This document shows, in pieces, positions 1-10,607 of a stretch of DNA of 13,507 nucleotides; position 1 is the stretch's first letter; every line of letters begins with the position of its first letter. The stretch covers positions 1 through 13,507 of IMG/VR virus record IMGVR_UViG_2534681663_000023; one strand, written 5' to 3'. This DNA comes from a virus (lineage: Duplodnaviria; Heunggongvirae; Uroviricota; Caudoviricetes). The position numbers and the translations under genes were made by a program. Under the pieces are notes generated by a model. The model saw only the letters and a program-made list of their open reading frames with translations. It did no database searches and was not told where the DNA came from.

Positions 1-213
1 TTAAATTGTGCGGACGGCTACTGAACCGCAGCCGGTATTGATGAGAGTGAAGCACTTGCCCTTTAGCTCAAAGATGTATGCGGTTGCGTCTTTCATGTCA
101 AGTAACAAAGACTTTGTTGGCAGTTCAGTGAGTATGGCTGCTGCCCCATCATCGTCAATTGAAATCGTATGTCCGACCTCAAGGGCGATCAAATTAGAAG
201 TTATTTTTTTCAT
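1..213 (-). CDS. Hypothetical small protein (70 aa), complete with stop at 1-3
   Basis: ORF track; ATG at 213-211 preceded on the minus strand by GGATGA about 8 nt upstream; stop TAA is the reverse complement of positions 1-3. No recognisable family. The overlapping plus-strand ORF 8-337 looks less protein-like. Confidence 0.35.
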   Translation of the reverse strand: MKKITSNLIALEVGHTISIDDDGAAAILTELPTKSLLLDMKDATAYIFELKGKCFTLINTGCGSVAVRTI

Positions 214-469
214 TTCATATCATCCAACTGAACACGTAAATACCTTGCAATACTACTACCTATTGTATCAATACGGAATACTTATGTATCAAATACAACT
301 TAGTTTTAAGTTCTTAAATGAGTTATTTTTTAGATAGTTGTCTATTAATGAAGCCTTTTGCGGTCAGTAAACCTATGTAAAAAAATAGATAAGTCTTTAC
401 AACACTAACCTTTGATGTAATATCAGTAAGCACTTACCAAATAAAATCAAAACACGCAGGTTGATAATT

Positions 470-859
470 ATGGCTACCAACGAAACAAAAGAAGCTAAAG
501 TAAGTCGCTACGCTGCTTACATTGACGCTTTAATCGCGATTTCTCCGAAAAGCCAGGCGACCATCGCGAAAGAAGCAGGCTATAAAAACCCTAACAATCT
601 TTCACTTATCAAGAGCGGCAAAATCCCGCTTCCGATCGACAAGGTCAGAGCGTTGGCTAAAGCATTGGATGCCGATTCGGTCCGATTGATGCTAATGGTG
701 CTGGAAGAGCGTCATCCAGAGCTGTTAGCGTTTTTTCGCGACGAAGGCACAGCCCCTCTGACTAAAGATGAAAAACTAGTTCTGGAAGCCTTCCGTCGAC
801 GTTTCGGTGACCAACGTGGTGCGTCGGAGCGGGTTGTTGAGGCAATCAAGTCGCTATGA
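470..859 (+). CDS. Putative HTH DNA-binding regulator (about 129 aa), convergent with the integrase
   Basis: ORF track 461-859 begins at TTG; the first ATG is at 470 with AGG about 9 nt upstream. The segment SQATIAKEAGYKNPNNLSLIKSGKIPLPIDKVRALAKAL reads like a helix-turn-helix of the XRE/phage regulator kind. Its 3' end overlaps the integrase 3' end by 6 bp. Confidence 0.5.
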   Translation: MATNETKEAKVSRYAAYIDALIAISPKSQATIAKEAGYKNPNNLSLIKSGKIPLPIDKVRALAKALDADSVRLMLMVLEERHPELLAFFRDEGTAPLTKDEKLVLEAFRRRFGDQRGASERVVEAIKSL

Positions 860-1957
860 GAAATTTACACGGATTAGCTCAGTAGCGAGTCGATCTCCCT
901 TGAACTTATGATCTATCTCCTCTAAATCCTGTTTCTCTACGATTGATGCGATGTACGCCGAAAAACTGTTTAAGGCGTCTCGCATCTCGTCTATATAATC
1001 GTGTCGATCGTATACTCGATCTATCCCCTCAAGACTGTGGTTCATAATTTTGCGGGATACCTCCTGACTTATGCCTAACGCGGGGAAGTAACTACGCGCA
1101 GTACGACGCAAATCTCGGGGAGTAAATGGCTCAAGCTCCATCAACTCTGGACGTTCTAAAATCCTTCTCAACGCCTGTGATATGGCCACCTTAGACATTG
1201 GCACATCCTCACCCTGTTTCTTGTTTGAAGGAACAAGCCACTGGCTGCCTTTTCCGTATTTGATCAGCTCCTCAACACATTTGCGCATTAGCGGGCTTAA
1301 TGGTAACGAGTGCTGGCGAGCCGATTTATTCCTCGTTCCTTGATTCCATAAATTATATTCGAGGTTGAATTCTGATCTTTTAGCTCGGAGCACTTCATCT
1401 GGTCGTCTGGCCGCTACAAGGCATAATCTGGCCGCCCACTTTGTACCCTCACATACGTTGAAGTAGTCCCATACATTCCAAAAGACCCAGACCTCTGCGT
1501 CGGTCAGTTTGCGCTCGCGCGGCGTGGGCTTCGCGCCACCGGCTACTCTGTTAAGCGACATATCGTTCAATGGGGATGTATCAATTAAGCCCTGAAATGC
1601 ACACCAACTGAGAAACTGCTTCATCAGCGAGAACACACGTCTGCCCTGGACGATCTTGCCCTCAAGTATTAATGGGTTCACCAGCTGGTTGACTAAAACC
1701 CTACTAATATCACTTACTTTTACTTCACAGATATGCGGCATTACATGTATCAAAATACAATGAACAGCTATTTCAGGTCGACGTCTCGTTATCAGCAAAG
1801 ATAAGCGAGTGAATAACATGAATGCGGAAGAAAACGACATATCACCGTCGAAATTGGTGGTCGACACTGCTGACAAACCGGAAGCGCGTTCGAGATACTC
1901 GATGGCTTCTCTAGAGGTGTTTTCTGCTGCGCGTGCTTTATCAAAAGTGTTTTTCAT
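854..1957 (-). CDS. int: Tyrosine-type site-specific integrase, P4-like family; true start uncertain
   Basis: C-terminal catalytic region matches the phage integrase pattern: ARRPDEVLRAKRSEFNL (box I Arg), KSARQHSLPLSP, RDLRRTARSY, NHSLEGIDRVYDRHDY (catalytic Tyr). The first ~75 residues of the ORF do not look like the usual P4-type arm-binding domain, so the real start may be internal (for example the Met of MPHICEVKV). Confidence 0.8.
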   Translation of the reverse strand: MKNTFDKARAAENTSREAIEYLERASGLSAVSTTNFDGDMSFSSAFMLFTRLSLLITRRRPEIAVHCILIHVMPHICEVKVSDISRVLVNQLVNPLILEGKIVQGRRVFSLMKQFLSWCAFQGLIDTSPLNDMSLNRVAGGAKPTPRERKLTDAEVWVFWNVWDYFNVCEGTKWAARLCLVAARRPDEVLRAKRSEFNLEYNLWNQGTRNKSARQHSLPLSPLMRKCVEELIKYGKGSQWLVPSNKKQGEDVPMSKVAISQALRRILERPELMELEPFTPRDLRRTARSYFPALGISQEVSRKIMNHSLEGIDRVYDRHDYIDEMRDALNSFSAYIASIVEKQDLEEIDHKFKGDRLATELIRVNFS

Positions 1958-2054
1958 AGTCCACTCACTGAGTGAAGCCTGTTTTTACTGTATTTATAAA
2001 CAGTATGTTAGGCCTAAGTTTTGTATGATCAACAGTAAAATAGACTGTTTTTGA

Positions 2055-2089
2055 AAATGATTCCATACCTTACAAGTATGGAATCATTT
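2055..2089. repeat. Perfect 14-bp inverted repeat AAATGATTCCATAC / GTATGGAATCATTT with 7-bp spacer, about 100 bp upstream of the integrase start
   Basis: Read directly from the sequence; both arms contain the recurring motif ATGATTCCATAC. Candidate operator or recombinase binding site. Confidence 0.7.
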
Positions 2090-2256
2090 ATATAGCTTAC
2101 GTAAATTCTGAATAAATTATGTAGACAAACCATCTTAAACGCTAAATAGTAAAAAGCGCCTAATAACGCCAACTTTGGAATGCCATCTGAGCCAGATTGA
2201 TGAGAATGATTTGTTAGAAGAAAAAGAATGATGAAGAAGATGACGATCGCTAAAGT

Positions 2257-2673
2257 TCAGCTAGAATGGAAACCTTCTGCGACTTCAGCGAAGTAGCTGA
2301 GCAACCTAGTATCTCTTGCTGGCATACGATCGTGAGCTGGAGTGACTAGCCCCATCAGCAAAAAACGCCCGCTATCCCACATGTGCTCGGTATAAACGAG
2401 ATAGTGGTTTGAGGTTCGGTTGTAGTTCTCTTGCCTTGCGTTCCAGGTAAGCTGGAAATGCAAATTGACGTGAATATGCTGGACATTAGCATCAACGGCG
2501 AACGGCGGGAAGTCAAATGGCGCATCTCGTCCAAGAAGATTAGATGGTGCGCCAGTTGATTTGTAAGTAATGAACTCGGATTTGAGCTGACTTTCTAGGT
2601 CAGGGTAAACGACAAAAGTGGGCTGAAAAAAATCATCCCACGTAACTTGACTGTATTCAGCCGTTAATGCCAT
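2257..2673 (-). CDS. YafO-like type II toxin (putative ribosome-dependent mRNA interferase), 138 aa
   Basis: Blocks recalled from E. coli YafO appear in the same order: ITYKSTG...LLGRDAPFDFP, HIHVNLH, HYLVY, ARD. The start ATG overlaps the stop of the upstream gene (ATGGCATTAA). Identification is from memory and needs a profile search. Confidence 0.5.
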   Translation of the reverse strand: MALTAEYSQVTWDDFFQPTFVVYPDLESQLKSEFITYKSTGAPSNLLGRDAPFDFPPFAVDANVQHIHVNLHFQLTWNARQENYNRTSNHYLVYTEHMWDSGRFLLMGLVTPAHDRMPARDTRLLSYFAEVAEGFHSS

Positions 2674-3212
2674 TTAGCCGCAGCCTTGTTGCCAGTCTCT
2701 AATAGATGGTTCATGGCTAAAAGGTTGACACCAGAGTCACGCACTACAGAAGTGCGTGTAATCTGATCAATCAGATTGAGATAGTTTTTGGTCGCAATAC
2801 TGACCATTTTAATAGCCTTAAAAAACGCAAACTCAACAGTGTTTTTTTCGTAAGACATGATGACGTCTTTTTCAGGTAACATCAAAACAAAAGATTCTGC
2901 GATACCGGCTACATGAATAGTTTGATTCTTAATTTCTTCCGCTACTTTGATAGCAGCAAAGAAGTCAGTGTCAGCATAATGAGCAAGTTCAGCGCGGCTT
3001 GAACGCAGTTCTTTAGCCAATTCATTGAGAGCAGCTGTAAGATCACTGATGTCGGTTTTGTTGACTCTAGCGCCCATCTCATAAACCCGTTCTACAATCG
3101 TAGGCTGACACGCAACCGCTTTGGGTTGCGGCTGGATACTGGCAAGAACCAGTGCCACTGCTGCCTGCAAATGCTGGATTTTAAATTTCACGATAGACTC
3201 CATAATCGTCAT
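2664..3212 (-). CDS. Hypothetical protein (182 aa), translationally coupled upstream partner of the YafO-like toxin; possible atypical antitoxin
   Basis: ORF track; 8-nt overlap with the toxin start; no recognisable domain by eye; much larger than YafN or Phd-type antitoxins. Confidence 0.45.
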   Translation of the reverse strand: MTIMESIVKFKIQHLQAAVALVLASIQPQPKAVACQPTIVERVYEMGARVNKTDISDLTAALNELAKELRSSRAELAHYADTDFFAAIKVAEEIKNQTIHVAGIAESFVLMLPEKDVIMSYEKNTVEFAFFKAIKMVSIATKNYLNLIDQITRTSVVRDSGVNLLAMNHLLETGNKAAAKWH

Positions 3213-3293
3213 TTCTCGACGAAGCGTAGCATTCTACTACTGAACTTAACTATAAGCTAAAAAAAGTTGGTTGCATATGCGACTTGATAGCAA

Positions 3294-3320
3294 AAAGGGG
3301 CCGAAGCCCCTTTGGATTTT
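3294..3320. terminator. Bidirectional rho-independent terminator hairpin (GGGGC-CGAA-GCCCC) flanked by A/T runs
   Basis: On the minus strand the stem is followed by TTTTTG, which would terminate the tRNA-Asn transcript before the toxin module; on the plus strand it is followed by TTTGGATTTTG. Confidence 0.5.
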
Positions 3321-3387
3321 GCGCTGAAAAAAGTGTTGCTACGATGCTTAGAAGCAATGGTTAAAAAACGTCTGCCGTGTCTATCAC

Positions 3388-3462
3388 AGCGCTGAACGGT
3401 CTGGCGACATTTGCGGAGTCTTTCGTTCGGACGGTGGTGGCGAATCCAAACCGTTCAGCGCT
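3388..3462. repeat. Perfect 13-bp inverted repeat AGCGCTGAACGGT / ACCGTTCAGCGCT enclosing 49 bp, immediately 3' of the tRNA
   Basis: Read directly from the sequence. Lies between the tRNA 3' end (3467) and the terminator; could be a processing or structural element, or a small repeat element. Confidence 0.6.
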
Positions 3463-3466
3463 ATGT

Positions 3467-3541
3467 TGGCGATGGTGGGTGGACTCGAACCACCGACCAG
3501 TTGATTAACAGTCAACCGCTCTACCACTGAGCTACACCATC
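3467..3541 (-). tRNA. tRNA-Asn (anticodon GTT), 75 nt with encoded CCA
   Basis: Manual fold of the minus strand: acceptor GATGGTG/CACCATC, D-arm GCTC-AGTGGTA-GAGC, anticodon stem GTTGA/TCAAC with loop CTGTTAA (U33, GTT, A37), variable TGGTC, T-arm GGTGG-TTCGAGT-CCACC, discriminator G, CCA. Confidence 0.85.
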
Positions 3542-3704
3542 ATTTTCGCGGCGGTACTAGCTTATGGACAACCAGGCAGCCAGAAACTTTCCCGTAACTT
3601 GCACTTTACGTTAGTGCCAGACGAGGTATGTGGCTCGCTCATATGAGCGAAGATCTCGAATCTTTCTCGGTGGTTGATTGCCGTTAGATTCTTCGATCTT
3701 ATTG

Positions 3705-3719
3705 GATGTATGGAATCAT
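3705..3719. repeat. 15-bp direct repeat GATGTATGGAATCAT, copy 1 of 2 (second copy at 4725-4739)
   Basis: Exact 15-bp identity read from the sequence. Its reverse complement ATGATTCCATACATC carries the recurring motif. Copy 1 sits within the local palindrome ATGTATG-GAAT-CATACAT. Confidence 0.7.
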
Positions 3720-3790
3720 ACATGTTGTGAAGCCAGGGGCAATAAAGGCAACAATGTTTTCACTAGAGGGTTAATTAATCCTGCTTTCAC

Positions 3791-3900
3791 AACGTTGAGA
3801 TCACTGAACCGATTAATGTTCAACCCAACATATTGATCAGTCGCTACAGCTATGTGGAATCGCCTGTATGATTTTAAGAAAAATCAGTGATCTCAACGTT
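3791..3900. repeat. Perfect 17-bp inverted repeat AACGTTGAGATCACTGA / TCAGTGATCTCAACGTT separated by 76 bp, in an ORF-free region
   Basis: Read directly from the sequence; arms at 3791-3807 and 3884-3900. Candidate structured RNA or miniature inverted-repeat element. Confidence 0.65.
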
Positions 3901-4266
3901 ATGTGCTGACTAACCAAGTCAGCCGGGTTACGTCGCCGCTTTTAACCCAAGTATAAACGACATAAGTAATGGAAATGACGTAACAGAATGGACGGTCAGC
4001 TGAAACCGGGATGGGGGAATGGAATGATGAAACCAACCGCCCATTCTGTTACTTCATTGAATGGGGCATGGATGGTGCAATATGCCCTATTCTGCGTTCT
4101 GCAATCACACTCGCTCAGTGTGTCCCATTTTGGTGACGAGGCTGGAAACTGACCTCGCTGGTGTTTGGCTTCTTAGGCTACTGCCAGGTATGCATCTTCG
4201 TTTGCAGTTATATTTAACGTTCAAACAGTCGCATCTCAACGAAAACAAAGTGATCTTATACATATT

Positions 4267-4290
4267 AGATAAGTAAGTAAATACTTATCT
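4267..4290. terminator. Possible weak hairpin (AGATAAGTA / TACTTATCT, 6-nt loop) at the end of the small-ORF operon
   Basis: 9-bp AT-rich stem overlapping the stop of the 101-aa ORF; no strong U-run, so terminator function is uncertain. Confidence 0.25.
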
Positions 4291-4590
4291 ATCTGTGATG
4301 CGTTTAGTTGCTATCTTTTTGATCAGGCTCCCCTTTTGTTCCGAAGTTCTCATGATGATGGCGGTAAAACGCTTCGCTTGAATAGTGATAGTTTCGTTTT
4401 CCTTGAGTTCGCCGTAATGCGTCTCTAACAGGGACCCCAGACGCCACAGACCGTCGTCTATGCGTTTATGGCTGGCGAATCTGATCAGCAGTAGCTTTAC
4501 GATTAACTGACCAATGTAAAAGGCAAATCCGAAGCCGGCCGCCACAAGGTAGGTTGCCAGCCACCAGTCGAAGGAAGTCAAATTGCTCAT
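4285..4590 (-). CDS. Hypothetical small membrane protein (101 aa), last gene of the coupled small-ORF chain
   Basis: ORF track; N-terminal hydrophobic stretch WWLATYLVAAGFGFAFYIGQLIVKLLLI; its ATG overlaps the stop of the upstream 50-aa ORF (AAATGAGC). Confidence 0.45.
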   Translation of the reverse strand: MSNLTSFDWWLATYLVAAGFGFAFYIGQLIVKLLLIRFASHKRIDDGLWRLGSLLETHYGELKENETITIQAKRFTAIIMRTSEQKGSLIKKIATKRITDR

Positions 4591-4739
4591 TTTCGCACTC
4601 CCGTCTCGTGAACAACCCGATACACACGCTTACCGACACGAAGTGTTTTGGTTTGCAGTTCCTGCTGGACCAGGGCGCGGCAGATTGCGAGGCCGAGGCC
4701 CACGCCACCAGTAAAAGATAAAATGATGTATGGAATCAT
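4587..4739 (-). CDS. Small ORF (50 aa, below track cut-off): MIPYIILSFTGGVGLGLAICRALVQQELQTKTLRVGKRVYRVVHETGVRK; small membrane protein or relic of a sensor-kinase 3' end
   Basis: Translated by hand. Start ATG overlaps the stop of the 70-aa ORF (TGATG); stop overlaps the start of the 101-aa ORF. The GC-rich segment encodes GVGLGLAICRALV, reminiscent of the histidine-kinase G2 box. The start codon lies inside repeat copy 2. Confidence 0.35.
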   Translation of the reverse strand: MIPYIILSFTGGVGLGLAICRALVQQELQTKTLRVGKRVYRVVHETGVRK

Positions 4740-4951
4740 CAGTGCGCCCCCGCCTCAGTCAATTGCTGCAACAACAAATAACCTTTTTCAGTCAGTTGAT
4801 AGTTCTCAATACATCCCTTTGGAGAAACGTTGGCGACAAGATTCATGCGCTCCAGTTTGGCTCTGGTCTTCGGCTTCCAGTTGGCGTAGAACTCCTTCCA
4901 CTTGCTGATTTCACGCAGGGTTTCCTTCTCTCGTTTACTTAACATGCTCAT
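4739..4951 (-). CDS. Hypothetical small soluble protein (70 aa), possibly winged-helix-like
   Basis: ORF track; overlaps the 3' end of the 59-aa ORF and is coupled to the 50-aa ORF. Charged, helical-looking sequence (LSKREKETLREI ... LTEKGYLLLQQL). Confidence 0.45.
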   Translation of the reverse strand: MSMLSKREKETLREISKWKEFYANWKPKTRAKLERMNLVANVSPKGCIENYQLTEKGYLLLQQLTEAGAH

Positions 4952-5114
4952 CCTTAATCTCCTTCAGTGTGTCCGTGATATCTACTATGCGATAAATACG
5001 ACCTCGCCTTTGCATGACACCGGCTTTTACGTAATCGTGGATACAGCTGGACATAACCAGACTTCCGATAACAATGCCGACGACTAAAAATACAAACATC
5101 CAGCCGAGCATCAT
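4935..5114 (-). CDS. Small ORF (59 aa, below track cut-off): MMLGWMFVFLVVGIVIGSLVMSSCIHDYVKAGVMQRRGRIYRIVDITDTLKEIKDEHVK; predicted single-pass membrane peptide
   Basis: Translated by hand. Its ATG (5114-5112) overlaps the TGA (5113-5111) that ends the reconstructed native ligase frame (ATGA overlap). Confidence 0.4.
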   Translation of the reverse strand: MMLGWMFVFLVVGIVIGSLVMSSCIHDYVKAGVMQRRGRIYRIVDITDTLKEIKDEHVK

Positions 5115-5156
5115 TCTTTATCTCCAATACGATCTTCGGTATCTCGAAGACATTTA
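5111..5156 (-). other. Displaced native 3' end of the ligase gene (encodes ...CLRDTEDRLGDKE-stop), separated from the gene body by the transposon
   Basis: Joining the sequence right of the right-hand ATTTA to the sequence left of the left-hand ATTTA keeps the ligase frame open for 13 more codons and ends at TGA 5113-5111. Confidence 0.55.
5152..5156. repeat. Target-site duplication ATTTA, left copy (right copy at 10797-10801)
   Basis: Identical 5-bp sequence immediately outside each terminal inverted repeat; 5-bp duplications are typical of Tn3-family transposition. Confidence 0.8.
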
Positions 5157-5194
5157 GGGGAGCCCGCAGAATTCGGAAAAAATCGTACGCTAAG
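5157..5194 (+). repeat. Transposon terminal inverted repeat, tnpA-proximal (38 bp); contains the tnpA stop codon
   Basis: GGGG...ACGCTAAG architecture typical of Tn3-family ends; tnpA stop at 5190-5192 lies within it. Confidence 0.85.
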
Positions 5195-8156
5195 GTTTTC
5201 CGGGCATCCGTAAGGGCCGAAACTTCCCGTCTTCCAGTCTGCGGCTCTGCCGCCAGACGTAATCGCCGGTTAGGTTGATGTGCTCCCAGCCCAGCGGCGA
5301 CAGGAATTGCAGCAGCTCGCCGTCCACCGGCTTGCCGGCCTCGACCAACCCCTGGGTGGCGCGTTCCAGGTACACCGTGTTCCACAGCACGATAGCCGCC
5401 GTCACCAGGTTGAGGCCGCTGGCCCGGTAGCGCTGCTGCTCGAAGCTCCGATCCCTGATTTCCCCAAGGCGGTTGAAGAACACCGCCCTGGCCAGCGAGT
5501 TGCGCGCCTCACCTTTGTTCAGGCCGGCATGCACGCGGCGGCGCAGTTCAACACTTTGCAGCCAGTCCAGGATGAACAGCGTGCGCTCGATCCGGCCCAG
5601 CTCGCGCAGGGCCACGGCCAGTCCGTTCTGGCGCGGGTAGCTGCCGAGCTTGCGCAGCATCAGCGAGGCGGTGACGGTGCCCTGCTTGATCGAGCTGGCC
5701 AGGCGCAGGATGTCGTCCCAGTGGGCACGCACGTGCTTGATGTTCAGGGTGCCGCCGATCAGCGGGCGCAACGTCGGGTAGGCTTGCACGCCCTGCGGCA
5801 CGTACAGCTTGGTTTCGCCGAGGTCGCGGATGCGCGGCGCGAAGCGGAAGCCTAGCAGGTGCATCAGGGCAAAGACGTGATCGGTGAAGCCGGCCGTGTC
5901 GGTGTAGTGCTCCTCGATCCGCAGGTCGGACTCGTGGTACAGCAGGCCGTCGAGCACATAGGTGGAATCGCGGACGCCGACATTCACCACGCGGGTGCTG
6001 AACGGCGCGTACTGGTCGGAGATATGGGTATAGAACAGCCGTCCCGGCTCGCTACCGTACTTCGGGTTGACGTGCCCGGTGCTCTCGCCCCGGCCACCCG
6101 CGCGGAAGCGCTGGCCATCGGAGGATGAGGTCGTGCCGTCGCCCCAGTGGGCGGCAAAGGCGTGGCGATACTGGTGGTTGACCAGCTCGGCCAAGGCCGC
6201 CGAATAGGTTTCGTCGCGGATGTGCCAGGCTTGCAGCCAGGACAGCTTGGCGTAGGTCAGGCCGGGGCTCGACTCGGCCATCTTGGTCAGCCCGAGGTTG
6301 ATCGCATCACCGAGGATTGCGGACAGCAGCAACGTCCTGTCTTTGGCCTCGGCCCCGTCCTTCAAGTGGGTGAAGTGGCGGCTGAAGCCCGTCCAGTCGT
6401 CCACGTCCATCAGCAGTTCGGTGATCTTGATGCGCGGCAGTAACTGGCTGGTTTGGTCGATCAGCGCCTGCGCCCGATCCGGCACCGCCGCATCCAGCGG
6501 GGGGATTTTCAGCCCTGACTCGGTGAGGATGGCATCGGGCAGCTCGTTGTCCTTGGCCAGGCGGGTGACGGTGGCCAACTGCTCGTCCAGCAGCTGCAAA
6601 CGCTCTTCCAGGTACTGGTCGCTGTTCGGGTTGATCGCCAGGGGCAGGGCCTGCTCGCGCTTGAGTGCGGCGAACTTCTCGGCCGGCAGCAGGTAGTCGT
6701 CGAAGTCGCGGAACTGCCGCGAGCCCTTGACCCAGATGTCGCCGGAGCGCAGGGCGTTCTTCAGCTCGGACAGGGCGCAGATTTCGTAGAATTTCCGGTC
6801 GAGGCCTTCCGGGGTGATCACCAGCGGCTTCCAGCGCGGCTTGATGAAGGCCGTGGGTGCATCGGCCGGCACCTTGCGCAGGTTGTCGGCGTTCATCTCA
6901 CGCAGGGTCTGCACGGCTGCCAGCACGCCTTGCGCGGCCGGCGCGGCGCGCAGTTCCAGCACCTCCAGCAAGGCCGGCGTGTAACGGCGCAGGGTGGCGA
7001 AGTTCTCGCCGACCAGGTGCAGGTGGTCGAAGCCTTCCGGCCGGGCCAGCAGCTCGGCCTCGCTGACGCTCTCGGTGAACTCGTCCCAGGGAATCACCGC
7101 CTCGATGGCGGCATAGGGGTCGCTGCCGCTTTCCTTCGCTTCCAGCAGCGCCTGGCCGATCCTGGAGTACAGGCGCACCTTGTCGTTGATCGCCTTGCCC
7201 TGCTTCTGGAACTGCTGCTGATGCTTGTGCTTCGCGCCGCTGAACAGCTTGACCAGGATGCGGTCATGCAGATCGACCAGCTCATCGATCACGGTCGCGG
7301 TGCTCTCCAGCACCACGGCGGCCAGGGTCGCGTAGCGGCGCTGCGGCTCGAACTTACCGAGGGCTTTGGGCGTCATCTGCCCACCCTCGCGGGCCAGCTT
7401 GAGCAGGCGGTTCTGGTGGATGTGCCGGCCCAGGCCTTCGGGCAAGTCCACCAACTGAAATGTCTTCAGCCGCTCGATGTGTTCCAGCATGTGCCGAGAG
7501 TTGGGTTTCAGCGGTGCCTGGCGCAGCCAGGTCAACCAGGTGATGCTGCTGCCGGCCTTGAGCTTCAACAGCTCGTCCAGCTTGGCCCGATGCGAGTCCG
7601 TGAGTGGTTCGACCAGGGCGCGGTAGACCCGCCGATTGGCTCGCGCAATGGCTTCCGAGCAGGCCCGGTCAATCACGCTCAGCGCCGGCAGGATGCGTCG
7701 TTTCTGCCGTAGGCTCTCCAGGGCCTGACCGGCCAGCAGCAAGCCTTTGTCGGTCTGCTGGGCCAGCTCGGTTAGCTCGCGCACCAGGGCGCGGAAGTCG
7801 GACAGGCCGAACGGGGCCAGTTGCAGGTAGGTGCGCAGTTCCTGGGCATGCTCGCGACGGGTCACGTCGCGCTCGCCGTACTTTGCCCAGCTCGCCGGCT
7901 CGGCCTGGACTTGCTTCGCCACCCACAGGATGACCGGCTCGGGCAGCTCGCTGTCGGTTCCCAGCGCGTAACCGGGGTAGCGCAGCAGGCAGAGCTGCAC
8001 GGCGAAGCCGAGGCGGTTGGCGTCGCCGCGTCGCTGGCGGATCAGCGACAGGTCGGAGTCGTTGAAGGTGTAGTAGCGGATCAGGTCATCCTGGCTTTCC
8101 GGCAGCGCAAGCAGGGTGTCCCGCTCCGTGGCCGAGAGGATCAAGCGACGCGGCAT
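5190..8156 (-). CDS. tnpA: Tn3-family transposase TnpA (988 aa)
   Basis: Length and sequence ([44 protein letters not shown]...) match Tn21/Tn501-type TnpA as recalled; very GC-rich relative to its surroundings; terminates inside the terminal repeat. Confidence 0.95.
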
Positions 8157-8159
8157 GTG

Positions 8160-8720
8160 TCAGTCGTCCGTGCGGAGGTACTGGTAGAGGGTTTCCCGGC
8201 TGATGTTGAACTCGCGGGCAAGCTGCGCCTTGGGCTCGCCGGCCGTCGCTCGCTGCCGCAGGGTAGCAGCCTGCTCATCGGACAGGGCTTTCTTGCGGCC
8301 CCGGTACGCGCCACGCTGCTTGGCCAAGGCGATGCCCTCACGCTGCCGCTCGCGGATCAGGGCGCGCTCGAACTCAGCGAAGGCCCCCATCACCGACAGC
8401 ATCAGGTTGGCCATCGGCGAGTCCTCGCCAGTGAACACCAGGCCCTCCTTCAGGAACTCGATGCGCACGCCGCGCTGAGTCAGCTTCTGTACCAAGCGAC
8501 GCAGGTCATCGAGGTTGCGGGCCAGCCGATCCATGCTGTGCACCACCACTGTATCGCCTTCGCGGACGAAGCTCAGCAGCGCTTCGAGCTGGGGGCGCTG
8601 GGTGTCCTTGCCCGATGCCTTGTCGGTGAACACCTTGCTCACCTGGGTTTGTTCCAGCTGGCGTTCCGGGTTCTGGTCAAAGCTGCTGACCCGGACGTAG
8701 CCGATGCGGTGCCCCTGCAC
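8160..8720 (-). CDS. tnpR: Serine resolvase TnpR (186 aa)
   Basis: N-terminal serine-recombinase motif (IGYVRVSSFDQNPERQ), C-terminal HTH (ISRETLYQYLR); sits directly upstream of tnpA in the same orientation, as in the Tn21 subgroup. Confidence 0.95.
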   Translation of the reverse strand: MQGHRIGYVRVSSFDQNPERQLEQTQVSKVFTDKASGKDTQRPQLEALLSFVREGDTVVVHSMDRLARNLDDLRRLVQKLTQRGVRIEFLKEGLVFTGEDSPMANLMLSVMGAFAEFERALIRERQREGIALAKQRGAYRGRKKALSDEQAATLRQRATAGEPKAQLAREFNISRETLYQYLRTDD

Positions 8721-9029: not shown

Positions 9030-10607
9030 ATGCGCCAGAATTTACCAGTGACGGGTCGAAACTTAGAACTCCCAAAAGATGCCAATATTCTTTCGACTAC
9101 CTCCCCTCAAAGCCATATCACGTACGTTAATCCTGACTTCATTAAAATCAGTGGTTTCACTGAGGAAGAACTATTAGGCCAGCCTCACAACATCGTAAGA
9201 CACCCAGATATGCCGCCTGCTGCATTTGAGCATATGTGGAGTACATTAAAATCTGGCCGCTCATGGATGGGGCTAGTAAAAAATCGCTGTAAAAATGGCG
9301 ACCACTATTGGGTAAGTGCTTATGTAACGCCAATAGCTAAGAATGGTTCGATTGTTGAATACCAGTCTGTAAGGACCAAGCCTGAACCTGAGCAGGTTTT
9401 GGCTGCGGAAAAATTATATGCTCAATTGAGAAGCGGGAAGGCCGCGAGGCCGAAATTGGCTGCTAGCTTTTCCGTGAAAATACTCTTGCTCATATGGGGT
9501 AGTATTATATCAAGCGCAATGGCTGCCGGCATGCTTACTGATACATCAATAAGCAGCTTATTGTTAGCCACTTTAATGTCAGGAAGCTTAAGCTCTGTTA
9601 GTGTTTTGGCTATTCTCTCTCCTCTTGGAAGACTGGTTGAAAGAGCCAGGAATATTTCCAATAACCCATTAAGTCAATCCCTCTACACTGGGCGCACCGA
9701 TGAGTTTGGCCAAATAGAGTTTGCTTTACGAATGATGCAAGCTGAAACAGGCGCCATAGTAGGTCGCATAGGTGATGCATCAAATCGGCTTAGCGAACAC
9801 ACCCGAGGCCTACTAAAGGATATTGAGTCAAGCAATGTACTTACAGTTGAGCAGCAGGCAGAGACAGATCAAATAGCAACGGCAGTAAACCAAATGGTGG
9901 CAAGCATTCAAGAGGTTGCGAGCAATGCACAGCATGCTGCAGATGCGGCCGGAAGAGCAGACACTGAGACGGCATCTGGCCAGCGTCTGGTAGCCCACAC
10001 AAGCCAGTCAATCACTGCCCTTGAAGGTGAAATTAGGCAAGCCACTCAGGTTATTCATGAGCTTGAAGGTCAAAGTAACGAGATATCAAAAGTTCTTGAC
10101 GTTATACGAGGGATCGCCGAGCAAACGAATTTGTTGGCACTCAACGCAGCAATTGAGGCCGCGCGTGCTGGTGAGCAGGGGCGTGGTTTTGCTGTTGTCG
10201 CCGATGAGGTTCGCAGTCTTGCTGCTCGCACACAGCAATCGACAACGGATATTCAAAGCATGATCAGCGCTCTACAAGAGCGAGCGCAATCCGCTGTTAC
10301 AGTCATGGAGCAAAGTAGTCGGCAAGCGCACACGAGTGTAGCTCACGCAGAGGAAGCAGCTACAGCTCTTGATGGAATTGGCCAACGCGTTAACGAAATT
10401 ACCGACATGAACGCGCAAATAGCGACTGCGGTCGAGCAGCAGGGAGCAGTAAGTGAAGACATAAACCGCAGTATTATCAATATACGCGATGCTGCTGATA
10501 CCAATGTACAGACCGGGCAGAATAATTTGCAAAGTGCGAAATCTGTCGCTCAGTTAACTAGCGCTCTGAGCGAACTGGCAAAACAGTTTTGGGAAAAACG
10601 AGGATAA
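9030..10607 (+). CDS. aer: Aer-like aerotaxis receptor (N-terminal PAS, membrane hairpin, methyl-accepting chemotaxis signalling domain), 525 aa; transposon passenger
   Basis: N-terminus closely resembles E. coli Aer PAS ([68 protein letters not shown]); hydrophobic hairpin near residues 150-195; conserved signalling core ([32 protein letters not shown]). Confidence 0.85.

What the first reader, a model, noticed from the sequence alone, without database searches (positions are those of the whole stretch)
2055..4739. Recurrent motif ATGATTCCATAC(ATC) at three loci
The motif forms a perfect 14-bp palindrome upstream of the integrase (2055-2089), an exact 15-bp copy near the tRNA (3705-3719), and another exact copy at 4725-4739 where it supplies the start codon of the 50-aa ORF. 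The second and third copies are direct repeats about 1 kb apart bracketing the 101-aa and 50-aa ORFs. Possibilities: binding sites for the integrase or HTH protein, recombination sites flanking a small inserted segment, or repeated gene-start sequences from cassette shuffling.
Basis: seen in the sequence. Interest (0 to 1): 0.55.

Follow-up and report, generated by a model that had tools for sequence, protein, structure and literature searches.

The report
Recombinase target site plus conserved half-sites
The repeated 12-base motif is very probably the recognition sequence of the neighbouring tyrosine recombinase of an SSU5-like phage-plasmid: the inverted pair is a lox-like crossover site used to keep the plasmid monomeric, and the single copies are extra half-sites kept by selection for a reason not yet known.

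Summary
ATGATTCCATAC occurs four times exactly in the window. A complete 115-kb relative has five copies against 0.013 expected.

The window's left 5.2 kb is backbone of an SSU5-like phage-plasmid of E. coli.

The pair at 2055-2089 has 14-bp arms and a 7-bp spacer, 97 bp upstream of a tyrosine recombinase gene.
- All 80 close relatives keep the arms letter-perfect, with at least seven spacer sequences, always 7 bp.
- In 63 distant loci, 60 have such a site. The arms switch to TGACTCCAGAC in step with the integrase clade.
- 55 of those loci lack the HTH gene, so the site belongs to the integrase.
- All 253 copies of the gene in complete E. coli genomes are on plasmids.

Best reading: a lox/dif-like multimer-resolution site.

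The solitary 15-mers (3705-3719, 4725-4739, and one in dnaE outside the window) are invariant at wobble and non-coding positions, so they are selected as DNA or RNA. They occur only in this lineage and their role is unresolved.

The "mobile cassette" and "repeated gene start" ideas are not supported.

By-product: the conserved non-coding block at 3725-4284 is a structured tmRNA-like RNA encoding the tag ANEDAYLAVA.

The parts
2055..2089 (.). Inverted repeat: arms AAATGATTCCATAC (2055-2068) and GTATGGAATCATTT (2076-2089), spacer CTTACAA (2069-2075). Proposed crossover (core) site of the adjacent recombinase.
   Evidence: One search gives the geometry; arms 100% invariant in 71 unique contexts, with spacer alleles that are always 7 bp; 60 of 63 distant loci have a site of the same design; homology between lineages stops at window 2088-2093.
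854..1957 (-). Tyrosine recombinase ('integrase'), 367 aa, two-domain enzyme without an arm-binding domain.
   Evidence: Pfam PF00589 E 6.5e-9. PHROG integrase. AF2 model pLDDT 86.7, helical from residue 7. Best PDB fold matches are lambda Int core-binding plus catalytic domains, E 1.7e-7. R185, K211, R284, H307 and Y316 conserved.
3705..3719 (-). Solitary copy ATGATTCCATACATC in non-coding DNA, 3-6 nt after the closing helix of the tmRNA-like RNA and 164 nt before tRNA-Asn.
   Evidence: Invariant core with diverged flanks in 35 unique sequences. In K. michiganensis it reads GTGATTCCATACATC, matching that genome's arms.
4725..4739 (-). Solitary copy ATGATTCCATACATC forming the start codon and codons 2-5 (MIPYI) of the 50-aa ORF. 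It overlaps the stop codon of the 70-aa ORF.
   Evidence: Third-codon positions variable 0/5 inside the motif against 33/34 in the flanks, Fisher p 1e-5.
1340..1351 (+). Degenerate copy TTGATTCCATAA inside the integrase gene (antisense; encodes LWNQ). In other lineages it reads TTGATTCCATACATC.
   Evidence: It may be partly a by-product of the conserved W-N-Q-G peptide.
2090..3466 (-). Variable cargo interval between the inverted repeat and the tRNA. Here it holds a YafO-family toxin (2257-2673) and a 182-aa partner ORF (2664-3212).
   Evidence: Pfam YafO E 1e-19. The interval varies from about 1 to 7 kb with different genes in relatives.

Best explanation
The 12-mer (core TGATTCCATAC) is the DNA half-site recognised by the adjacent tyrosine recombinase.

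The inverted pair at 2055-2089 is the enzyme's crossover site. Two monomers bind the arms and exchange strands across the 7-bp asymmetric, AT-rich spacer, as Cre does at loxP or lambda Int at its core site. With one gene and one site on a plasmid prophage, the job is to convert plasmid multimers back to monomers. It may also circularise incoming phage DNA. Different spacer alleles would keep different lineages from recombining with each other.

The solitary 15-mers (ATGATTCCATAC+ATC) carry the same half-site with no partner arm. They are held constant by selection on the nucleic acid itself. My preferred reading is that recombinase monomers bind them in a regulatory or architectural role. They are an add-on of the Enterobacteriaceae SSU5-like lineage, not part of the basic system.

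Shown here: non-random occurrence, conservation, arm/enzyme co-variation, independence from the HTH gene, plasmid-only location, and an intact catalytic set.

Inferred: binding, strand exchange, multimer resolution, and any role of the solitary copies.
For: Geometry: 14-bp perfect arms and a 7-bp spacer, 97 bp upstream of the gene.

Close relatives: all 80 loci (integrase 80-100% identical) have exact arms and a 7-bp spacer. At least seven spacer alleles were tallied in those loci and nine across 71 unique contexts.

Distant relatives: 60 of 63 loci from Yersinia, Kluyvera, Pantoea, Rahnella, Erwinia, Xenorhabdus, Morganella and others have the same design. There are two arm classes that follow the integrase clade, TGATTCCATAC at >=58% identity and TGACTCCAGAC at 45-50%. 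The changes are symmetric on both arms.

Ownership: 55 loci have the integrase, and nearly all of them the site, but no HTH gene and no 70-aa ORF.

Location: 253 of 253 occurrences in 5,426 complete E. coli genomes are on plasmids.

Boundary: homology between lineages ends at the outer edge of the repeat, and the adjoining interval is the variable cargo region.

Enzyme: tyrosine recombinase fold nearest lambda Int, whose overlap region is also 7 bp (established knowledge). It has no arm-binding domain, and R185, K211, R284, H307 and Y316 are conserved.

Solitary copies:
- the 15-mer occurs 3 times against 0.0002 expected;
- wobble positions are fixed, dnaE 1/5 variable against 36/36 in the flanks (p 5e-5), ORF50 0/5 against 33/34 (p 1e-5);
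- the dnaE copy imposes the peptide CMES in an otherwise hypervariable loop;
- the non-coding copy follows the arms' A-to-G change in K. michiganensis.
Against: No binding or recombination was tested.

Against a simple half-site reading of the solitary copies:
- They share three extra bases (ATC) that no inverted-repeat spacer has.
- They lie 1.6-6.3 kb from the core, which no known accessory site of a tyrosine recombinase does.
- All class II loci, including three with an SSU5-like backbone, and the non-SSU5-like class I Chimaeribacter loci have the core site with no solitary copies. The copies are therefore not needed by the enzyme.
- Integrase-less SSU5 and L160 still carry them. This is weak evidence, because SSU5 lost the module recently by a microhomology deletion.

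Against full catalytic orthodoxy: the first His of the HxxR box is Arg in this family.

A perfect palindrome upstream of a gene could also serve as an operator.
Confidence: 0.62

Rival explanations
1. RNA-level element. The 15-mer acts in transcripts, not in DNA. All genes here are transcribed on the minus strand. Two RNAs carry AUGAUUCCAUACAUC: the spacer after the tmRNA-like RNA, and the ORF50 start. The dnaE and integrase mRNAs, and the integrase leader hairpin if it is transcribed, carry the exact complement. Base pairing between them would regulate replication and recombinase genes. The 12 bases shared with the inverted repeat arise because the RNA evolved to match the integrase leader.
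For: It explains why the solitary copies share 15 nt while the repeat arms share only 12. The strand pattern fits, with sense copies at 3705-3719 and 4725-4739 and complementary copies in dnaE and int. Solitary copies are found only in genomes that also have the tmRNA-like RNA. The motif lies unpaired just after the RNA's closing helix.
Against: There is no transcript data. The ORF50 copy has no role as a target. The model needs several coincidences, whereas the protein-site model needs one protein. In K. michiganensis the integrase-internal copy is mismatched at the position that co-varies elsewhere.
Confidence: 0.18
2. Operator only. The inverted repeat is a binding site through which the integrase, or another protein, represses the integrase promoter, and no strand exchange occurs there.
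For: The palindrome lies 97 bp upstream of the start codon. The neighbouring HTH protein is listed as a putative repressor in phage Cyrano (PMC9928086).
Against: The site persists with the integrase in 55 loci that lack the HTH gene. The spacing of 12-14-bp arms around 7 bp is that of recombinase cores. The spacer varies freely in sequence but never in length. Homology breaks at the site. The enzyme keeps its nucleophile and catalytic residues across 46 homologues.
Confidence: 0.08
3. attP for chromosomal integration. The inverted repeat is the phage attachment site, and the solitary copies are relics or secondary sites of integration next to tRNA or tmRNA genes, as for P4-type integrases.
For: Distant homologues are P4-type integrases with an arm-binding domain. 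IntA of CP4-57 aligns at 21.5% identity, E 5e-11. One solitary copy sits between a tmRNA-like gene and a tRNA gene.
Against: None of 253 copies in complete E. coli genomes is chromosomal. There is no arm-binding domain. The site is a perfect palindrome, not an imperfect attP core with arm sites. The resemblance of the motif to host ssrA is at chance level, 89 of 2000 shuffles.
Confidence: 0.04
4. Cassette ends. The direct repeats at 3705-3719 and 4725-4739 are recombination sites flanking a mobile 1-kb segment.
For: They are exact 15-bp direct repeats 1,020 bp apart. A shared ATC could support a first strand exchange.
Against: Both copies and the segment are present with near-constant spacing wherever both ends lie on the contig, and there are no empty sites. 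There is no partner arm, and the spacers differ after 3 nt. The segment holds conserved backbone genes and the tmRNA-like RNA.
Confidence: 0.03

Closest known systems
Cre/loxP of phage-plasmid P1, and the Cre-type systems Vika/vox, Dre/rox and YR1-12 (PMC10250229)
   Same: A single tyrosine recombinase of 300-400 aa without an arm-binding domain. One palindromic target with 13-15-bp arms lies within 1 kb of the gene, on a plasmid prophage. The role there is multimer resolution and cyclisation (P1 role as stated in PMC7969092).
   Different: The spacer is 7 bp, not 8. There is no detectable sequence similarity to Cre (no PDB hit at E 0.01). The fold is closer to lambda Int (E 1.7e-7) than to Cre (E about 1e-2). 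The published Cre-type search would have missed it, because it required tblastn similarity to Cre/Vika/Panto/Nigri and an 8-bp gap. P1 has no conserved solitary half-sites.
Lambda Int and P4-type integrases, core-type sites
   Same: Best structural match (core-binding plus catalytic domains). 7-bp overlap region. Distant sequence relatives are P4-type integrases.
   Different: No N-terminal arm-binding domain. No arm-type sites, Xis or IHF architecture identified. Perfect rather than imperfect inverted arms. Never found integrated in E. coli chromosomes.
Rci/sfx shufflon of plasmid R64 (from memory: 12-bp conserved arm plus 7-bp spacer, other arm not conserved)
   Same: The solitary copies resemble sfx sites in design: one conserved 12-bp arm next to a spacer, with no conserved partner arm.
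   Different: Only 3 of 7 spacer bases are shared. No inversion or rearrangement polymorphism was seen in more than 100 loci. The sites are kilobases apart inside essential or conserved genes.
Accessory same-motif repeats of tyrosine recombinases: DR1/DR2 of the TnpI resolution site of Tn4430, and the third 13-bp element of FRT (from memory)
   Same: Extra single copies of the recombinase's own half-site exist in addition to the inverted core pair.
   Different: Those accessory repeats lie within about 100 bp of the core. Here they are 1.6-6.3 kb away, on both sides.

Membership tests
Tyrosine recombinase superfamily (Pfam PF00589) | Catalytic-domain profile match above the curated threshold | tested here: met
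   PF00589 36.2 bits against a cut-off of 27.1, E 6.5e-9.
Tyrosine recombinase superfamily (Pfam PF00589) | Catalytic residues R-K-H-R-H/W-Y | tested here: met
   R185, K211, R284 and Y316 are invariant in 46 homologues; H307 is in 43 of 46. The first His of HxxR is Arg (R281) in this family and His in the P4-type outgroup. Five of six residues are canonical.
Cre-type simple recombinase/site systems | Enzyme of 300-400 aa with no arm-binding domain | tested here: met
   367 aa. AF2 model helical from residue 7. No PF13356 match, unlike the 28-33% homologues.
Cre-type simple recombinase/site systems | Palindromic target with 13-15-bp arms within 1 kb of the gene | tested here: met
   14-bp arms, 97 bp upstream. 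Present in 60 of 63 distant loci.
Cre-type simple recombinase/site systems | 8-bp spacer | tested here: not met
   The spacer is 7 bp in every one of more than 140 loci.
Cre-type simple recombinase/site systems | Sequence relationship to Cre, Vika, Panto or Nigri | tested here: not met
   phmmer against all PDB chains, which include Cre: no hit at E 0.01. Foldseek E for Cre is about 1e-2, against 1.7e-7 for lambda Int.
Cre-type simple recombinase/site systems | Recombines two copies of its site without accessory factors | not testable with these tools
   Needs an in vivo or in vitro recombination assay.
Lambda/P4-type integrative systems | N-terminal arm-binding domain and arm-type sites | tested here: not met
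   No PF13356 or PF09003 match. Helical N-terminus.
Lambda/P4-type integrative systems | Element found integrated in the host chromosome at a tRNA or tmRNA gene | tested here: not met
   0 chromosomal places out of 253 in 5,426 complete E. coli genomes.
Lambda/P4-type integrative systems | 7-bp overlap region between inverted core-type sites | tested here: met
   7-bp spacer throughout.
Plasmid multimer-resolution system (function class) | One recombinase gene with one cognate site, carried on a plasmid | tested here: met
   Exactly one inverted pair per locus. Plasmid-only in E. coli. Relatives occur on Pantoea, Erwinia and Rahnella plasmids and large contigs.
Plasmid multimer-resolution system (function class) | Loss of the gene or site raises multimer level and lowers stability | not testable with these tools
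   Genetic experiment needed.
Shufflon-type (Rci/sfx) multiple-inversion system | Several sites sharing arm and whole spacer, with inversion isomers among genomes | tested here: not met
   Only ATC of the spacer is shared. Order and orientation of all copies are constant in all loci.

The most novel reading that the evidence does not exclude
The dispersed half-sites form a second, lineage-specific layer built on the recombinase's specificity. There are three to four single 15-mers, all pointing towards the resolution site from both sides, written into a variable loop of DnaE, the first codons of a small membrane protein, and the 3' flank of a phage tmRNA-like RNA.

They could act in one of three ways:
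- as polar recombinase-bound landmarks, comparable to KOPS or Ter sites around dif;
- as single-strand-exchange sites;
- as the nodes of an RNA pairing network that couples the tmRNA-like transcript to replication and recombinase genes.

Any of these would be a new way of using a tyrosine-recombinase half-site.
Probability: 0.12. Interest if true: 0.75.

Novelty: new variant of a known kind. Interest (0 to 1): 0.5.

Why it matters
This integrase gene is in about 4.6% of complete E. coli genomes (251 of 5,426), and SSU5-like phage-plasmids often carry resistance transposons, as this window does. Knowing the maintenance site of these elements helps explain their stability and where cargo accumulates.

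The recombinase/site pair is not described in the searchable literature. It is unrelated in sequence to Cre, uses a 7-bp spacer, and comes with two natural arm specificities and many natural spacer alleles. That makes it a ready source of orthogonal tools for genome engineering.

The selected solitary half-sites are an unexplained feature that simple experiments can test. The neighbouring tmRNA-like RNA, missed by standard annotation, may be of wider interest for phage-host translation control.

Tried and rejected
- HTH protein as the binder. Rejected: 55 loci have the integrase and lack the HTH gene, and 52 of these keep the site.
- Mobile 1-kb cassette. Rejected: constant presence and spacing.
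- Chromosomal attP. Rejected for E. coli: 0 chromosomal copies.
- Motif as a piece of host ssrA or an attB relic. The similarity GGATGTAGGAATTT is at chance level, 89 of 2000 shuffles.
- Motif as a promoter -10 element. Two promoter-like hits overlap it, but the count of such hits equals the shuffle expectation, 7 against 5.2 +/- 2.2, and the upstream bases are not conserved.
- Motif as the T-arm or acceptor end of the tmRNA-like RNA. No conserved pairing or CCA.
- Long-range pairing of UUCCAU with AUGGGA, proposed by RNAalifold. Only 6 bp, with no double changes, and it disappeared in the cleaner alignment.
- A degenerate partner arm next to the solitary copies. None was found by eye or in the conservation profiles.
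- Scan of viral contigs for the 15-mer. Uninformative, because a 15-mer is expected by chance in a collection of that size.
- Ungapped flank comparison around the repeat. Uninformative because of indels; the BLAST end-points were used instead.
- SSU5 as a natural integrase-less test. Of little value, because the loss is a recent microhomology deletion.
- Literature searches for the arm sequences. Only unrelated primers turned up.
Full report
CONTEXT

Window 1-5158 is 99.8% identical to E. coli plasmid pEC21Z137-115K and about 30 similar plasmids of 100-115 kb. It is 77-90% identical in parts to Salmonella phage SSU5, Escherichia phage Cyrano and Klebsiella phage-plasmids. It is therefore backbone of an SSU5-like phage-plasmid.

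From 5156 the GC content jumps from about 0.45 to 0.65. That DNA is a Tn3-family (TnAs1/Tn1721-like) transposon with transposase, resolvase and a chemotaxis-protein gene. It interrupts the 3' end of the phage DNA ligase gene.

Gene order on the minus strand of the backbone is:
- four small ORFs of 59, 70, 50 and 101 aa, each a conserved phage family of unknown function;
- a 560-nt conserved non-coding block;
- tRNA-Asn at 3467-3541;
- a YafO toxin pair;
- the inverted repeat;
- the 367-aa integrase;
- a convergent HTH gene on the plus strand;
- a 70-aa ORF.

THE OBSERVATION

The motif is present exactly as described. It is far from chance. In the whole 115.2-kb relative there are 5 copies of the 12-mer against 0.013 expected, and 3 of the 15-mer against 0.0002 expected. 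All lie within 9 kb. The fifth copy is inside dnaE, outside the window.

THE INVERTED PAIR IS THE INTEGRASE'S SITE

1. Design. The arms are 14 bp and perfectly complementary. The spacer is 7 bp, asymmetric and AT-rich. The site lies 97 bp upstream of the gene.

2. Close relatives. All 80 viral contigs encoding an integrase 80-100% identical have exact ATGATTCCATAC arms and a 7-bp spacer. The spacer sequence takes at least seven forms in those loci and nine across 71 unique contexts. One form is the reverse complement of another. Fixed arms, a free spacer sequence and a fixed spacer length are what a tyrosine-recombinase core site looks like.

3. Distant relatives. Integrase homologues of 45-63% identity were fetched from metagenome and genome collections. 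Sixty of 63 genome loci, from Yersinia, Kluyvera, Buttiauxella, Chimaeribacter, Pantoea, Rahnella, Erwinia, Ewingella, Hafnia, Photorhabdus, Xenorhabdus and Morganella, have an inverted repeat with a 7-bp spacer 44-217 bp upstream of the gene.
   - The arms fall into two classes that follow the integrase clade: TGATTCCATAC at >=58% identity and TGACTCCAGAC at 45-50%.
   - The two substitutions appear symmetrically on both arms.

4. Ownership. In 55 of the 63 loci neither the HTH protein nor the 70-aa ORF is within 10 kb. The site therefore travels with the integrase alone.

5. Enzyme.
   - Pfam places it in the phage-integrase family.
   - The AlphaFold model (pLDDT 86.7) is helical from residue 7, with no beta-sheet arm-binding domain.
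   - Its best solved-structure matches are lambda Int core-binding plus catalytic domains, then Tn1549 Int, IntI and Xer proteins. Cre matches only weakly.
   - More distant homologues (28-33% identity) are P4-type integrases that do carry the arm-binding domain PF13356.
   - R185, K211, R284, H307 and Y316 are conserved. The first His of HxxR is Arg.

6. Biology.
   - All 253 copies of the gene in 5,426 complete E. coli genomes are on plasmids.
   - In a Pantoea megaplasmid the gene stands alone among unrelated genes.
   - BLAST homology between the window's lineage and the Cyrano-like lineage runs through the integrase and both arms and stops at window 2088-2093.
   - Beyond that point lies the interval whose length (1-7 kb) and gene content vary between genomes.

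Together these results point to a lox/dif-like site whose main role is multimer resolution of the plasmid prophage. That is a role the phage-plasmid literature expects of such recombinases (PMC7969092). Binding and catalysis remain untested.

THE SOLITARY COPIES

They occupy the same positions in E. coli, Salmonella, Klebsiella and Nissabacter-like relatives:
- just after the structured RNA;
- at the start of the 50-aa ORF;
- antisense in dnaE;
- as a near-copy inside the integrase gene.

Their flanks have diverged but the 12-15 nt have not. Codon third positions are variable at 36 of 36 flanking sites in dnaE but at only 1 of 5 inside the motif (p 5e-5). For ORF50 the figures are 33 of 34 against 0 of 5 (p 1e-5).

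In dnaE the motif dictates the peptide CMES within a loop that differs on both sides, and that is entirely different in genomes without the copy. In K. michiganensis the protein start MIPYI is kept while the DNA motif has decayed. The dnaE copy is absent there, and the non-coding copy reads GTGATTCCATACATC, matching that genome's GTGATTCCATAC arms.

Selection therefore acts on the nucleic acid, and the copies are tied to the arm sequence.

Several facts complicate the picture:
- No class II locus has solitary copies of its own arm, including the three with an SSU5-like backbone, nor do the Chimaeribacter class I loci, which are not SSU5-like. The copies are therefore a lineage-specific addition.
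- All of them point towards the inverted repeat from both sides.
- They share ATC after the arm, which no repeat spacer does.
- SSU5 lacks the integrase module but keeps the copies, one of them with a substitution. SSU5 lost the module by a deletion between an 8-nt microhomology, so this says little.

I favour monomer binding by the recombinase. An RNA-level role remains a serious rival (see the rival explanations).

REJECTED READINGS

- The 1-kb segment between the two direct copies is not a mobile cassette. It is present at constant spacing wherever both ends lie on the contig.
- The motif is not a repeated gene start.
- Resemblance to host ssrA is at chance level.
- No paper in the library contains these arm sequences in a relevant context.
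- The published search for Cre-type systems required similarity to Cre-like enzymes and an 8-bp gap. It would not have found this pair.

BY-PRODUCT

The non-coding block at 3725-4284 (minus strand) is more conserved than its neighbouring genes, and it folds with z = -7.7.

On 16 diverse sequences, 147 predicted pairs are 96% paired. Thirty-eight pairs show changes on both sides, against 16 +/- 2.3 in shuffles (0 of 500) and 8-14 when the partners are slid.

The block contains GCA AAC GAA GAT GCA TAC CTG GCA GTA GCC TAA, which reads ANEDAYLAVA-stop. Every lineage has a variant of AN[DE]xxYLAVA. This closely resembles the E. coli SsrA tag ANDENYALAA.

Rfam tmRNA models match this part only below threshold. 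ARAGORN does not call it, and RefSeq leaves it unannotated. No canonical tRNA-like domain was found.

A related element, with tag ANEEMYLAVA and a T-arm-like GGCGGTTCGACTCCGC, lies between Q and the holin gene of a lambdoid prophage. Phage tmRNAs listed in the 2014 survey are from mycobacteriophages and Bacillus phage G only (PMC4131195).

VERDICT

The motif is the half-site of a previously undescribed but conventional kind of recombinase/site pair, with an unusual set of selected solitary half-sites.

Noticed in passing
window 3725-4284 (minus strand): A conserved, strongly structured RNA-like element: 147 pairs, 38 with compensatory changes, against 16 in shuffles. It contains a tmRNA-style tag reading frame, GCA AAC ... 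TAA = ANEDAYLAVA*. Every relative has a variant of AN[DE]xxYLAVA*. ARAGORN does not call it, it scores below Rfam thresholds, RefSeq leaves it unannotated, and no canonical tRNA-like domain was found. It may be a new phage tmRNA-like RNA or a tmRNA mimic.
   Followed up: partly
L343 3915-4220 (E. coli ST12468 chromosome, lambdoid prophage, between antiterminator Q and holin): A related tmRNA-like element with tag ANEEMYLAVA* followed by a T-arm-like GGCGGTTCGACTCCGC. Sub-threshold Rfam tmRNA hits cover both parts. It is unannotated and has no copy of the motif.
   Followed up: partly
window 5156-about 8800 and beyond: A Tn3-family (TnAs1/Tn1721-like) transposon: terminal repeat GGGGAGCCCGCAGAATTCGG... 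at 5156, transposase at 5190-8156, resolvase at 8160-8720, a chemotaxis-protein gene at 9030-10607, GC 0.65. It is inserted about 45 bp into the 3' end of the phage DNA ligase gene. The same insertion is present in plasmid NZ_CP058356.1.
   Followed up: partly
window about 10-17 and about 3427-3434; L004 7998-8007: Phage SSU5 lacks the whole block of 70-aa ORF, HTH, integrase, inverted repeat and cargo. Its junction shows a deletion between copies of the microhomology CGGACGG. The type phage is therefore a recent deletion derivative lacking both the recombinase and the putative lysogeny repressor.
   Followed up: yes
window 2069-2075 and the same position in L010-L223: The spacer of the inverted repeat has many alleles: CTTACAA here, and in integrase orientation CTACTAT, TTGGTAG, CTATTAA, TTAATAG, TTATTAG, GTAGTTA and others. 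Both orientations of the same spacer occur relative to the gene. The loose consensus is YTNNTAR. Different alleles would make natural heterospecific sites.
   Followed up: partly
window 2090-3466: The cargo next to the site is a YafO-family toxin (2257-2673) overlapping a 182-aa ORF (2664-3212). Some close relatives lack about 440 bp here. Other lineages carry glutaredoxin, PhoH, extra tRNAs and other genes instead. In Cyrano the gene next to the site is expressed 723-fold above the prophage background in lysogens.
   Followed up: partly
pEC21Z137 21723-21737 (L001), outside the window: The fifth copy of the motif lies antisense in dnaE. It forces the peptide CMES into a loop that is otherwise hypervariable and is quite different in genomes without the copy.
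   Followed up: yes
L092 6238-6513: In a K. michiganensis relative, a tRNA-Pro and a further tRNA-like sequence ending in GGTTCGAATCCTGTGACGGGCGCCA lie between the tmRNA-like RNA and the solitary motif. The motif starts 13 nt after that CCA end.
   Followed up: no
window 3293-3315 and 3374-3390 (minus strand): Two terminator-like hairpins follow tRNA-Asn: GGGGCTTCGGCCCC+TTTTT and GCTGTGATAGACACGGC+T-run. No terminator separates the tmRNA-like RNA from the tRNA, so they are probably co-transcribed.
   Followed up: no
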